This document shows positions 16,801-37,800 of a stretch of 64,000 nucleotides of DNA, piece by piece. The DNA is from Lingula anatina (taxonomy: Eukaryota; Animalia; Brachiopoda). The translations under genes were made by a program, and so were the position numbers. The DNA lies in the NCBI GenBank assembly GCA_051362555.1, contig JBPQGU010000016.1, forward strand, positions 5,456,001 to 5,520,000, in the 5' to 3' direction. The notes under the pieces were generated by a model that was given only the letters and a program-made list of their open reading frames with translations, had not been told where the DNA came from and ran no database searches. Position 1 is the stretch's first letter. Every line of letters starts with the position of its first letter.

Positions 16801-19800
16801 TTCTGTCTGGTGCCAGATTGTTCCCTCTGTATTTGCACAGTATCAGTTTCTGGGAGGAAAGAGAATACTCTCTCTCAAAAACAATCAATCAATGAGTAGA
16901 TAAAAATCTACTCCAAATTCTAAATCTAATTAACACCATTCTCTTGCAAGAAAACAAATCGGTCTTTATCAACTGTAATTGTGACACTTGTCAAAAGTTT
17001 ATCATTAAAATCCCATTATTTTTCAATTTTGTTTAATTACCCTCAGATGCTGAGACATGCAGCAATTGTATAATTTAAACCATGGTAACTGAGCACACTT
17101 GTCAAACTGGTCCTCTTACCATTACTACCCTGTGTCTCCTGGGGCACCCTGTATTACCCTGTGTCTATACCCTTACCATTACTACCCTGTGTCTCCTGGG
17201 GCACCCTGTATTACCCTGTGTCTATACCCTTACCATTACTACCCTTTGTCTCCTGGGGCACCCTGTATTACCCTGTGTCTCTACCCTTACCATTACTACC
17301 CTGTGTCTCTACCCTTACCATTACTACCCTGTGTCTCCTGGGGCACCCTGATGCCCCTGGTTTCCTTCCCTGCCATATCCGACCCCTCCTTTCTCCTGGT
17401 CAGTGAGATATCAGACTGAGTGGCCTGAGCAGTGACCGGTGGGCCTTCATAGCTGGACTTGGAATTGCTGCCCAAGAAAATACTGGCAGACTTGTTCATC
17501 TTGGTGTAAGTGGTCAGCACTTCTTCCAGCTCACTCTCACTGAAGTAAAAAACAGATTATCACTCCAAATTAGTTCACTAACAACGCGTTGTAACAGACA
17601 CATAGAGATTCATCTGTATCTTCCATAAGCTAACAGATTAACATAGTTATGTTAAATTAAAGATCTTTTGCTGGTCTCAAAAACTACAGAAAATAACTGT
17701 TAAGCAAAATGATACAGGTAAAGTAAAACTTATTACAAAAGTAAATGTGAAAATGCTACTAATTAATTATACATTCATATGCATAAACATAATAGTCAAG
17801 CTTAGAGAAATAAATAAACTGTTGTAATGGTATCAATTCCTTGCCATAAATTTCCACTTTTCTTACCCAGCTACATTCATAAACTGCCCAAACTTGTCCT
17901 CATCCACCATGTTCATGTCAATCTTGTCTTTCTTCAGATGTTTCTCTTCCACTTTTGTCCTCTGCCTCAACTGATCCGTCTCCTACAAGATCAAGGCTCT
18001 CCGTATCAAACCAATTTTCATATCAAGCAAGACAAAGCATAAATATTAAAATGAGAGCTTACAAAAAGATAACTGTTCACTGTTCATCATACAAATCACT
18101 TTACTATTATGAAAATTCAAGTACCAATGCACGAGTTACTGACCACTGGAGAGTTCACTGAAATGTTGAACAGTGCATACCTGGATACATGTGTGAATAC
18201 ATGCAACATGAGTTATATATACATACACAATGTTTTATCACATCTACACACCAATGTTTTTACTGTACAAGTACTTAAGTCACAAAAGTGTGGGGATAAT
18301 ATGAAGAGACTAAGACTTACCCTAGAGTAGACATGGACAAAATCTCCCAGCTGCTTGGATAGAATCCGTCTCCTGTCATTGATGGGTAACTTCCTGCTGG
18401 GGACGACCACCTTGAATGGCTGCTGAAGGTTGACGGCTGCCCTCTTCAGGAACCGGAGCACCAGATCCTGGGAGAGTGAATACAAAATGTTCTTTTAGGA
18501 GTAAACTTCTTAAAACTTTGACAGTCAATTTAATGAAGGGTGGTATAAGAACAAATACCTGGATAGAGTAACTTGAGTTATGAGTAGATGTGGTTTCCAA
18601 TCAAATAATACACAACCAGTTAATAATGATTCAAACATAAGCCTCAATAAGTACAGGAAATACAAATGATGGAGAAAACACTACCACACCCATTACCTTC
18701 ACTGAAATGTTTTTATCATTTCATATTTAGATTTAAAATTTGTTTTTTATCTCTCTCTCTCTCTCTCTCTCTCACACACACACACACACACACACACACA
18801 CACACACACACACACACACACACACACACACATACACAAAAAAAAACTTTCAAATGAAAAATGGTCCCATCCATCTCATCAGGGATATATTCTCACCATC
18901 TGCTCATTGGCTGCCTCCCTGTCTCCCTTGTCACTGCTGCCTGTCTCTGACATCAGACGCTCCTGGACACGGGACAAATATGTGGCAAACGCTGACCTCG
19001 CCTGCACTTTACTGAAACAGTCAAATTAGAATTAAAGTAAATATGTATTCTCACACATATTTGGCCACATTTACATCAAGTTGGTGATGCATTTGGTTGC
19101 AATAAAGTACTTGTATCTTTTTTTAATTATCTTGTTTCAATAGTGGCATTAAATAATAATAAGGGGGATTATATTCACTCTCAAAATTTATCTTTCTAAA
19201 AAAATTCCTAACCATTATTACAAAAACTAATAAAACACACCACTTATATTCTACTTAGTTTAAAGTCTCAACTCTGTTCTTCTAGAAATCAGTGCAGTAT
19301 CTAAACCAAACCCCTGCATTCATACCTTAAACTTCCTCCCTTCTCCAACACACCAACCACGTCAAACTTTGGTGGTGGCGGTGCTGGCTGAATAACAGAC
19401 GCTGTCTCAAAATTGGTGATGACTTTATTCCTGGTGGTCACTGGCTCCGTAGTCCTGGGCCTGTTCAGCTGGTTATAACTGGCTGGGGCGGGGGTGGGCG
19501 GGGCCTTGTACTGGTAGGAGGAGACAGGGGGTGGGGGTGCTTCTTGTCCCTGGGGTTCCTGTCTGACCATGGGGGGTGGGGGTGCAGAGGGGTCTGGCTG
19601 AGACTGAGAGGGTTTCTTGACAGTAGATGGCTGGTTGTAGTTGTAAGTGACTTGTGGCTTCTGCTGTGGTGGTACTTTAGGTTCATCACCTTTTCCTTGC
19701 TGCTGAGAGAGAAATTTCATCAAGGCAATAAGATAAGAAATATATGCAATCAGCCTCAATACTAATGTTTTATTTTACTTCTGATCTGTTGGAACTAACA

Positions 19801-34800: not shown

Positions 34801-37800
34801 GTGTAATAAAGCTAAGTGACATAAAGTCAAAATACTTACTACAGAAGTCCTGAAACTCCTCTGGTGTAATAAAGCTAAGTGACATAAAGTCAAAATACTT
34901 ACTACAGAAGTCCTGAAACTCCTCTGGTGTAATAAAGCTAAGTGACATAAAGTCAAAATACTTACTACAGAAGTCCTGAAACTCCTCTGGTGTAATAAAG
35001 CTAAGTGACATAAAGTCAAAATACTTACTACAGAAGTCCTGAAACTCCTCTGGTGTAATAAAGCTAAGTGACACAAAGTCAAAATACTTACTACAGAAGT
35101 CCTGAAACTCCCCCGGTGTAATAAAGCTAGGAGGGACAAAGTCAAAATGTTTCGGTCCCTTGGTGTGCTGCATACGCTGGATATTTTTGAAAAGTCGATC
35201 CTTTCTTGTTATTTCATAAGACCTTAAGCAACAGAGAGAAGCATTTCGTCAAAGTATGAACATTTTGAAAGACAATATGAAAGACAACATTCGAGGTGTT
35301 AAAAATGCTTTCTTCTAGCAGCTAAAACAAATATATGATTATCATAAAATGTACCAATAAGAATAAGCTCTTATATAGCTCATATCAGTTTTAAAGGTCA
35401 ATTATAATTGCGTAAAAGAAAATGGCAGTCGTACCTGGGGAAATGATTAACTTTCTGGAACTCAGTCAGGGTCCTGAGAGTGTAAGGCTTCAGATGAGAA
35501 CCTGTCCACATCAGATTGAAATCATTGCTGTTTGGGTGTGCCTGAAATAGGACAAAAGACTGTTAAAGAAACAAATAATGAGTAATTCAGGGAGTGAAAT
35601 AAAATATGGCTGCCACCTGAGATTTTCAGGGAAATTGATTTTCAAATTTACTGTCATTATTCTGCAATCTGAGAAGGTATAATTGCAGATTAAGAATTTT
35701 CATTATTTAGTCATTATATTGCAGGGAGGTAAATTTCTCTGCAACAACCTCATATTCATACTTTTTTTTCAATAATGGGCTGACCCAAAAATAAGTTTTG
35801 TTTCAGTCAAGAAGTTGAAAAAACATTAACCTAACTGAAATTTAAAATCAAAACACTGATAAATTTGCCAAATTTTTCTGAACAATTTCAGCTTCTTCAG
35901 CCAAACTAAATCTTCAGTATTTGACGAAACTTTTGTGTGAGCCTAGGATAATTACTTTTCAGGTTTCCCCAACACATAAAAATCAATAAAGGAATGACTG
36001 AAAACTGCCCTCTCTAAGTTTGTAGTATTCATGCTGAATTTCTCCATCTTTATATCTTTGCAATTTTGTATATGGAAAAAATTCACTAACAGTAAACAGT
36101 AAATAGTTTTTCATTTCTGGATATTGTCATGTACATTTTTCATAACAACATGCCTCTGTTATTTTACTTGTACTGAGTTCTATAACTTACCTCATGAAAA
36201 CCATGCGCAGAGAGAATTGATCTCAATAATTTACACTCTGTCCTTATTAACTTGTAGGCCAAGTGGTACTTTTCTGAAATGTTTTATATCATAATATTAT
36301 AATTAAATATATTGAGAAGTGGAGGCAATGACAATGAAAACAAACAAATTATAATCATAGACATGAACAAGATGAAGAATTGGTTTGTCATAGTCTTAAA
36401 CACTGCCACTTTCTTTTATAGTTGCTATATGAGAAGATAGGAAGAAATTATTTGCTCGGTTCAATAATTGGTTGGTGTTGGTGGCGAGAGCGGGAGTCAC
36501 CCTGTGATGCTCGAGCAATAACACCTTGATAACCGAGCGGCGCGATAAATTGTTAAAATACTGAGATGGATACTTGAGCGAGGTTGACAAAAATCATTAA
36601 GAAGTAGAAAACTGTTATAGACCTTGCCAGTGGTATTTATCACTACAAAGATGCCATTTCGTATCGACCTTTAGAATTCAGAAAAATAGAAAGGTATGCC
36701 GATTCAAAGTTTCATGCTGAACTTCATTCATTTTTATTTATAAAAATTCATATTTTGGGAAATTATAATGAAAAGAGAAATATTTCTACTCAAGATTCTA
36801 AAATATTTGTTAAAAACTATGAACTTTATTTAACATCTAACTATAGCAAGTACATTGGCTTATTTTCAGGAAGTATAAAATTCATTTTGCAAAATATTGA
36901 AATGATAACTACCATTTGAATCCTCTAAAGGAAATGTATTATAGACATTAAGGTACAAAGCTCTAGGGTTTAGTATAGAGAATGGGTTCAGGACCACATG
37001 ATGTCTCCCAGGACATGGATAAACTGTATTAATGCCATTTATCTTCCTTCTAACCAGCTGTTCTTCTTAACATTGATCAAGATCAATAGCAGTCAATAGC
37101 CTACCACTGTGGCTTACACATATTCCATTCAATGTCAATACCCTCCACTCTGAGACAATATTTACTTAGTATGGAATTCCAATACAATGGCCTAGTATAG
37201 AATTACAGTAACAGAGGTTCTTATATACAAGTCACAAATAAAGTTATTGTTAAATCTCTTAGCCTTAAACATTCTAAAACTAGAAGCTCATTAAATATTT
37301 TATGCACATCTGCATAAGAGAACTGAGGTCTTCTATATTAATGTTTGTTTAAAATTATATTCTATTGGTTTTAAAAACAGAATGGAAATAAAAACTATGT
37401 CCATATAAATTTGCGATATCTACTCTGAATACATATTTATCCCACAGATCCAAATTTAAACTTGGAAAAATTCATTTACATGTTGTATTTCCATGGGTGA
37501 AAGTTGTAAAAATGAAAACTCTGAAAACACAGCTTGCAATTTGCTCATTTATACAATATGGAAAAAAAGATCAAAATGGAGTCTAAAAATCCTAAAATCA
37601 GGCATGATCCTGAAAACTTTCACCCATTTATTTGTGTCTCAGACTTTATTTTAAACGAGTTTGGTCTTAAAGATTAAAAATATGAATCTCATCCAAACAG
37701 TTGTTATTCATTTAAAGGTGCAGACAATCAAACAAATAATTTATCACCCACCTCCTATTACTTTATACTGAGGTTCCTTCTTTTCTAGAGCTTGGGGCTT

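What the first reader, a model, noticed from the sequence alone, without database searches (positions are those of the whole stretch)
17115..35148. Recurrent tandem duplication of exon 3' ends with their splice donors across TTLL5
Seen: at least four exons (donors at 35091, 32583, 27743, 17318), plus a putative one near 21875, have their last 20-56 coding bases and first intron bases amplified 3-6 times into the intron with the GT donor kept. A sixth array starts at the 30486 donor. None extends comparably over TTLL5 acceptors. Independent arrays this tightly anchored on donors look non-random. Inference: either a donor-anchored duplication process, or survival bias because only duplications spanning the donor leave the first copy spliceable. 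Either way the spliceosome must choose among near-identical donors, giving a source of length-variable isoforms and of exon-end renewal.
Basis: partly seen in the sequence, partly recalled or inferred. Interest (0 to 1): 0.8.

Follow-up and report, generated by a model that had tools for sequence, protein, structure and literature searches.

The report
Splice-donor minisatellites in brachiopod TTLL5
In a tubulin-modifying gene of the lamp shell Lingula, four exon ends with their splice signal are copied head-to-tail into the next intron, but at the one array where RNA junctions could be read only the original signal was detected, so these are likely tolerated repeats of a kind already known from lancelets and several human genes.

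Summary
The arrays are real. The gene matches Lingula anatina TTLL5 (7 differences in 1,492 aa). Four of its 34 donors (35091, 32583, 27743, 17318) are spanned by tandem arrays, giving 17 extra GT donors. No acceptor is spanned (0 of 34). The 30486 array starts at a real donor but has no extra copy of it, and the "21875 donor" is unsupported. Placement on donors beats chance even after removing exon-internal placements (p about 2-5e-4, post hoc), so survival alone does not explain it. The donor-versus-acceptor asymmetry is not significant (p=0.11). A DNA run shows the 63-bp unit at about 4x depth, which argues against assembly artefact. At 35091 all extra donors are in frame, yet 54 RNA reads use the first donor and no downstream joint was listed; a few array reads in one run remain unexplained. 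The other three arrays could not be read in RNA. These are "mirage"-type minisatellites (lancelet Adh3 and globins; human F7, CBS, 6-16). The scan has already noted them elsewhere in this genome, including at an acceptor, and similar arrays in other genomes. Verdict: new member of a known kind; the isoform-source reading is unsupported.

The parts
13888..39642 (-). TTLL5 coding gene, 35 exons including alternative exons (30860-30828, 30549-30487, 29795-29766, 29009-28980); TTL domain at residues 157-434
34783..35148 (-). 63-bp array spanning donor 35091 (about 58 exon + 5 intron bases); extra donors 35028, 34965, 34902, 34839, all in frame with no stop; first donor used in RNA
32248..32644 (-). 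Array spanning donor 32583 (56 exon bases + gtaata + (AAT)n; spacings 117, 105, 108); extra donors 32466, 32361, 32253, in frame (poly-Asn plus repeated exon end); copy 1 has the pattern of a copy-2/exon chimera
30276..30483 (-). 21-bp x9.9 array starting at the donor (30486) of an alternative exon; no extra copy of the donor
27505..27762 (-). 37-bp array spanning donor 27743 (18 exon + 19 intron bases); six extra donors; read-through meets TAA at once
17115..17337 (-). Compound 28/57-bp array spanning donor 17318; extra donors 17290, 17233, 17176, 17119; read-through stops in the first unit
21673..21897 (-). 63-bp x3.6 intronic array with a donor-like TAG|GTAGAG; no support as an exon end; likely about two units shorter in DNA run X3
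22884..23083 (-). 18-bp x11 intronic array with a donor-like GGG|GTAATA; zero RNA depth in its bin; 124 bp shorter in a contig of DNA run X3

Best explanation
These are minisatellites whose first unit spans a real exon/intron boundary of TTLL5, and they are likely neutral because the spliceosome takes the first donor (seen at 35091, inferred at the other three). Steps. (1) Inferred: a short local duplication (slippage or microhomology repair) copies 18-58 exon bases plus the first 5-19 intron bases; each unit is native to its own junction. (2) Read from the sequence, mechanism inferred: the array grows by unequal exchange, including exchange with the exon itself. Copy 32466 carries the 5' variants of copy 32361 and the 3' variants of the exon. 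(3) Shown at one array, established for human F7: the most upstream donor wins by position, since the downstream donors have the same or nearly the same sequence, so the mRNA is unchanged and the array survives. (4) Inferred: survival fixes the orientation but not the excess over intron interiors, so duplications likely arise more often near exon edges in this genome; the cause of that bias is untested.
For: Arrays and donors. For the four donor-spanning arrays and 30486, each unit hits only its own site in the window. RNA at 35091 (three runs of one study): 9+6+6 = 21 reads join 35092 to 34503, and 4+14+15 = 33 more have loose ends matching the next exon. No joint from the four in-frame downstream donors was listed. 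All 6 RefSeq isoforms use first donors. Copies at 35091 differ from the exon mostly by amino-acid changes (4-5 of 6 changed codons). No indel against 12 molluscs at three conserved junctions. DNA run X4: a 93-letter contig on the unit at depth 193.9 against 46-52 in the flanks. DNA run X3, about 2% different from the window at 17.3-20.4 kb: contigs end at 17321, 30454 and 32285, at or inside the arrays. Precedent: PMC3087553 and PMC3902484 (passages), PMC1557585 (abstract, introduction, discussion).
Against: RNA junctions were read at only 1 of 4 arrays; the joint table was filled by transposon reads. Joints need 3 reads at 2 starts per run, so minor use is invisible. Run X12 has depth 1.2-1.9 across the three array bins (roughly 480 read-bases beyond the overhang; 4 of 81 reads fit two places) and zero in other purely intronic bins, which could be rare downstream-donor transcripts. 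Eight X13 reads have overhangs too short to place. At 32583 the two nearest copies differ from the exon only at synonymous sites (4 of 4). Nonsense-mediated decay would hide downstream use at 27743 and 17318. RefSeq models are predictions on another haplotype whose arrays I could not see. X4 is near-identical to the window here and may not be an independent individual.
Confidence: 0.75

Rival explanations
1. The arrays act as ladders of alternative donors and give length-variable TTLL5 isoforms (in-frame inserts at 35091 and 32583, decay-coupled switches at 27743 and 17318).
For: All 7 extra donors at 35091 and 32583 are in frame without a stop. Copies 1-2 at 32583 differ from the exon only synonymously. 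A few reads lie in the 35091 array in run X12. In human 6-16 and CBS two pseudo-sites are used besides the authentic one (PMC1557585 introduction).
Against: 54 first-donor reads and no listed downstream joint at 35091. The inserts would fall inside the TTL domain, where 12 of 12 molluscs show no indel. The 35091 copies and the far 32583 copy carry amino-acid changes. Three of the four synonymous differences are shared with the oldest copy and fit drift of the exon itself. None of 46 proteins has a duplicated exon-end motif.
Confidence: 0.1
2. A donor-specific, splicing-coupled mutational process (for example breaks or R-loops at the 5' splice site) creates duplications anchored on donors and not on acceptors.
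For: 4 donor-spanning and 0 acceptor-spanning arrays; two more arrays start exactly at a donor GT (30486, and 51554 in FUT8); units take only 5-19 intron bases.
Against: Asymmetry is not significant (p = 0.11-0.125). An acceptor-side array lies at 6253-6422. Lancelet mirages occur at both edges. An unchecked scan note reports a 52-copy acceptor array in this genome (e1-10599882). No mechanistic test was possible.
Confidence: 0.1
3. Chance plus survival: minisatellites arise anywhere, those inside exons are purged, and this gene was picked because it happens to have several at donors.
For: The window was selected for the pattern. The broad any-junction test gives only p = 0.02-0.04. 0 of 24 donors in the three neighbouring genes have a spanning array. 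Three large arrays lie away from modelled junctions (8559, 21673, 22884).
Against: With the survival filter in the null, 0.4-0.5 donor-spanning arrays are expected and 4 seen. Two unchecked scan notes report many junction arrays in other parts of this genome (e1-10600167, e1-10600042).
Confidence: 0.1
4. The arrays are assembly artefacts.
For: No raw long DNA reads were examined, and X4 may share the window's haplotype.
Against: Copies differ from the exon and from each other in ordered ways. The unit has about 4x depth in X4. X3 contigs break at three of the arrays.
Confidence: 0.02

Closest known systems
Amphioxus 'mirage' minisatellites (Adh3, globins BflGb6/BflGb9, troponin C, PGBD5); PMC3087553 and PMC3902484, passages read; the Adh3 paper PMC117041 was not available and is known only through these
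   Same: Tandem duplicates of an exon/intron boundary lying in the intron with splice signals kept; units of tens to about 160 bp; homogenised inner copies with divergent end copies; regular splicing unaffected; found in several genes of a marine invertebrate.
   Different: Here a brachiopod, not a cephalochordate; four donor-spanning arrays in one gene, none at its acceptors; one array has grown an (AAT)n microsatellite at the unit junction; two arrays keep the frame throughout.
Human donor-spanning VNTRs: F7 IVS7 (37 bp, 5-9 copies), 6-16, CBS IVS13, LMNB2, PDGF; PMC1557585 abstract, introduction and discussion read
   Same: First monomer spans the exon/intron boundary; identical pseudo-donors follow; the most upstream donor is used (F7, LMNB2, PDGF), even where downstream ones keep the frame.
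   Different: One array per human gene in those reports; the F7 unit has only 4 exon bases against 18-58 here; in 6-16 and CBS two pseudo-sites are also used, which was not seen at 35091.
Variable internal tandem repeats at exon-intron boundaries in human segmental duplications; PMC2812944, passages read
   Same: Tandem repeats at exon edges that can in principle change splicing.
   Different: Those cases have transcript support for altered gene structure in duplicated genes; here a single-copy gene with no detected change.

Membership tests
Mirage / junction-spanning minisatellite | Head-to-tail repeat with a minisatellite-size unit | tested here: met
   TRF units of 28-117 bp, 3.4-7.9 copies
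Mirage / junction-spanning minisatellite | First unit spans a genuine exon-intron boundary | tested here: met
   Four donors of the RefSeq-matching model; 35091 also seen in RNA joints. Not met for 30486 (abuts only), 21875 and 22884-23083.
Mirage / junction-spanning minisatellite | Splice signal reiterated in the intronic copies | tested here: met
   17 extra GT donors, each with 0-1 mismatch over 12 bases
Mirage / junction-spanning minisatellite | Normal splicing at the authentic site | tested here: inconclusive
   Met at 35091 (54 reads, no downstream joint listed); not readable at 32583, 27743, 17318, where only RefSeq predictions speak
Mirage / junction-spanning minisatellite | Length polymorphism between alleles | tested here: inconclusive
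   Short-read contigs break at the donor arrays, so allele lengths are not seen; only the two non-donor arrays look shorter in X3, and contig collapse is not excluded
Mirage / junction-spanning minisatellite | Somatic instability (reported for lancelet Adh3) | not testable with these tools
   Needs single-molecule typing of one animal
Alternative 5' splice-site ladder (6-16 / CBS type) | Downstream pseudo-donors used in mRNA | tested here: not met
   No joint from 35029, 34966, 34903 or 34840 reached the listing threshold in 3 runs; minor use and the other arrays remain open
TTLL5 (tubulin polyglutamylase) | TTL domain and identity to annotated TTLL5 | tested here: met
   99% to Lingula anatina TTLL5; PF03133 E = 5.8e-91

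The most novel reading that the evidence does not exclude
Lingula has a genome-wide mutational process that aims short duplications at exon edges, donors above all, and the arrays keep exchanging sequence with the living exon, so they store past exon alleles and can feed variants or in-frame extensions back into exon ends.
Probability: 0.2. Interest if true: 0.7.

Novelty: new member of a known kind. Interest (0 to 1): 0.33.

Why it matters
The repeat type is known, but the origin of mirages was called unclear in the lancelet paper (PMC3087553). A brachiopod with several per gene offers many independent events for testing whether duplications are aimed at exon edges, and many natural tests of choice among identical donors outside mammals. 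In practice such arrays can mislead gene prediction and short-read junction mapping. This window alone adds one well-checked gene, one RNA test of an in-frame ladder, and a copy that looks like an exon/copy chimera.

Tried and rejected
No whole genome is held for this window, so the genome-wide donor/acceptor test could not be run. Laying reads on 14000-32800 gave exon depth and contig ends, but its joint table was filled by transposon reads from 23.9-27.2 kb (15 rows shown, 268 hidden), so it says nothing on donor choice at 17318, 27743, 30486 or 32583. No RNA holder was listed in the run index; RNA runs came by species label. Putative exons ending at 21876 and 23077, and a possible partner near 20690, were considered and left unsupported. 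A search for older, decayed junction copies at 58 introns gave two borderline hits (TASP1-like donor 9390, FUT8 acceptor 52163; score 22 vs null maximum 19), treated as chance since about 4 are expected from 232 tests. A G+C bias as the cause of the enrichment is not convincing: 8 of 10 units are above the median intron G+C, but the 35091 and 27743 units are only at the 74th and 62nd percentile and two edge arrays are very A+T-rich. Exon-end renewal was looked for as indels against molluscs and not found at the three conserved junctions; the 30486 and 17318 regions are too variable to judge. Literature: 7 searches. None returned a report of such arrays in brachiopods (one search gave 0 papers) or a genome-wide donor/acceptor count; the library lacks most subscription papers. 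PMC12783039 and PMC10078293 (passages) were not relevant. No supplements were read.
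Full report
Identity. The large 3' exon (14478-15497, minus strand) matches Lingula anatina TTLL5 at 99% identity; the next hits are molluscan TTLL5. The cluster holds six RefSeq isoforms. Mapping them to the window gave 35 exons from 39642 to 13888 with GT-AG introns; the spliced models differ from isoforms X1 and X2 at 7 residues each. 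The TTL domain covers residues 157-434. No whole genome is held, so everything below rests on the window, seven public runs and the literature.

Observation. TRF lists 64 rows. A junction-probe scan of all 58 introns in four genes (TTLL5 34, FUT8 8, a TASP1-like gene 12, a MAX-like gene 4) finds four strong donor-spanning arrays, all in TTLL5 (35091, 32583, 27743, 17318; scores 54-56 against null maxima of 19-22), and no strong acceptor-spanning array. They add 4, 3, 6 and 4 GT donors. Three more arrays abut a junction without spanning it: 30486 (21 bp, donor of an alternative exon used in isoform X2, no extra donor copy), FUT8 51554 (47 bp x2, donor side) and 6253-6422 (56 bp x3, ending 5 nt before an acceptor). 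RNA depth in its bin is under 0.5 per strand, partly on the wrong strand, next to a small inverted-repeat element. I do not count it.

Chance. I took arrays with unit 10 bp or more and TRF score 100 or more inside coding gene spans (11 arrays; microsatellites, the 160-183 bp transposon-internal satellites and one intergenic 41-mer were dropped), collapsed each to one unit and placed it uniformly. In TTLL5 0.4-0.5 donor-spanning arrays are expected and 4 seen (p = 2-5e-4); 5 touch a donor edge (p = 3-8e-5). Removing exon-internal placements or transposons hardly changes this, so survival bias alone does not produce the excess. The test is post hoc, and the wider version (at least 4 of 10-11 arrays spanning any junction) gives only p = 0.02-0.04. 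The donor/acceptor asymmetry is not significant (4/34 vs 0/34, p = 0.11; 6:1 with abutting arrays, p = 0.125), nor is TTLL5 against its neighbours (4/34 vs 0/24, p = 0.13).

Reality. In DNA run X4 a 93-letter contig on the 63-bp unit has depth 193.9 against 46.1 and 51.8 in the flanks, about four copies. X4 differs from the window at one site in about 2.8 kb there, so it may not be an independent animal. In X3, about 2% different at 17.3-20.4 kb, contigs end at 17321, 30454 and 32285, as expected if the arrays are present; one contig crosses the 18-bp array 124 bp shorter and begins at 21799, which fits about two units fewer in the 63-bp intronic array (contig collapse is not excluded).

Donor choice. 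Read-through of 27743 meets TAA at once and of 17318 a TAG in the first unit. At 35091 and 32583 every extra donor is in frame with no stop. The 35091 array is therefore the fair test, since decay would not hide its products. In three poly(A) runs of one study, 9, 6 and 6 reads join 35092 to 34503, and 4, 14 and 15 more run off the exon with loose ends matching the next exon. No joint from a downstream donor was listed; the threshold is 3 reads at 2 starts per run. Against this: X12 shows depth 1.2-1.9 over the array bins and none in other purely intronic bins (4 of 81 reads fit two places), and 8 X13 reads have overhangs too short to place. Rare use is not excluded. The other three arrays could not be read because transposon reads filled the joint table. 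All six RefSeq models use first donors, but they are predictions on another haplotype. At the three conserved junctions the protein aligns without an indel to 12 of 12 molluscan proteins chosen from the 40 other hits.

History. Each donor-array unit matches only its own site in the window, so these are independent local events. The 35091 copies are nearly identical to each other and differ from the exon in six codons, four or five of them amino-acid changes; at the synonymous site 35114 they carry the base that 43 of 72 RNA reads carry in the exon. At 32583 the farthest copy, followed by the original intron start, is the most diverged. The nearest copy has the 5' variants of copy 2 and the 3' variants of the exon, the pattern expected from an unequal exchange between exon and copy 2 (inference). 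An (AAT)n tract has grown at the unit junction, where intron start and exon share AATA (read). Copies 1-2 differ from the exon only at synonymous sites (4 of 4). Three of these are shared with the oldest copy and fit drift of the exon under selection, but the pattern also fits the isoform rival and is reported as such.

Mechanism. Most likely: local duplication across a donor, growth by unequal exchange, and tolerance because the upstream donor wins by position. The positional rule is shown experimentally for human F7, where in-frame downstream sites are also ignored (PMC1557585, discussion). The excess over intron interiors likely needs a higher origin rate near exon edges; its cause is untested, and G+C content does not explain it cleanly.

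Known systems. [quoted passage not shown] Human F7, 6-16, CBS, LMNB2 and PDGF carry donor-spanning minisatellites; two of them use nearby pseudo-sites (PMC1557585, introduction). The TTLL5 arrays meet the structural criteria; polymorphism and somatic instability were not settled. Seven literature searches found no brachiopod report and no genome-wide donor/acceptor count. The scan's own notes list 62 findings in at least 27 genomes that hold my search words (8 shown), two windows of this genome with many junction arrays and one long acceptor array. These are unchecked AI notes, used as leads only.

Verdict. Real, non-random within the gene, not an artefact, and a new member of a known kind. 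The isoform and exon-renewal reading is unsupported where it could be tested. Interest 0.33; the open point worth a genome-wide test is why duplications gather on exon edges.

Noticed in passing
window 51463-51554 (minus): 47-bp x2 A+T-rich duplication starting exactly at a FUT8 donor GT; intron bases only.
   Followed up: partly
window 6253-6422 (plus): 56-bp x3 array ending 5 nt before the acceptor AG of an exon in the TASP1-like gene (Asparaginase_2 hit; the name TASP1 is recalled).
   Followed up: partly
window 21876-21960 and about 20638-20686 (minus): Two unannotated exon-like frames (phase 0-to-1 and 1-to-0) that would keep the frame only if included together; the first also reads on through the 63-bp array in frame to a stop at its end. 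No RNA or homolog support found.
   Followed up: partly
window 28980-30860 and 22656-22685 (minus): Cluster of four short alternative TTLL5 exons (30-63 nt) used in different combinations by RefSeq isoforms, plus a 30-nt microexon present in all six.
   Followed up: partly
window 23929-27204 and 44852-49340: Two related copies of a high-copy transposon-like element with an internal 160-bp satellite; very deep in DNA and abundant in poly(A) RNA reads.
   Followed up: no
window about 21235-21530: Small element with long inverted ends (MITE-like), high copy in DNA run X3.
   Followed up: no
window 8559-9210: 28-bp x23 mid-intron minisatellite; a short match to its unit recurs near 38.1 kb.
   Followed up: no
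window 42969-62463: A bHLH gene (MAX-like by recall; HLH hit) lies head-to-head with FUT8, followed by TTLL5; from memory MAX, FUT8 and TTLL5 also lie on human 14q23-24, a possible old linkage.
   Followed up: no
window about 960-1806 (minus): Intronless Tam41/Mmp37 gene in an otherwise intron-rich region; possibly a retrocopy or intron loss.
   Followed up: no
window 35082-35091 vs 34494-34503: The first ten intron bases after donor 35091 resemble the first ten bases of the next exon (7 of 10), which makes spliced reads align into the intron and can fake intron read-through.
   Followed up: yes
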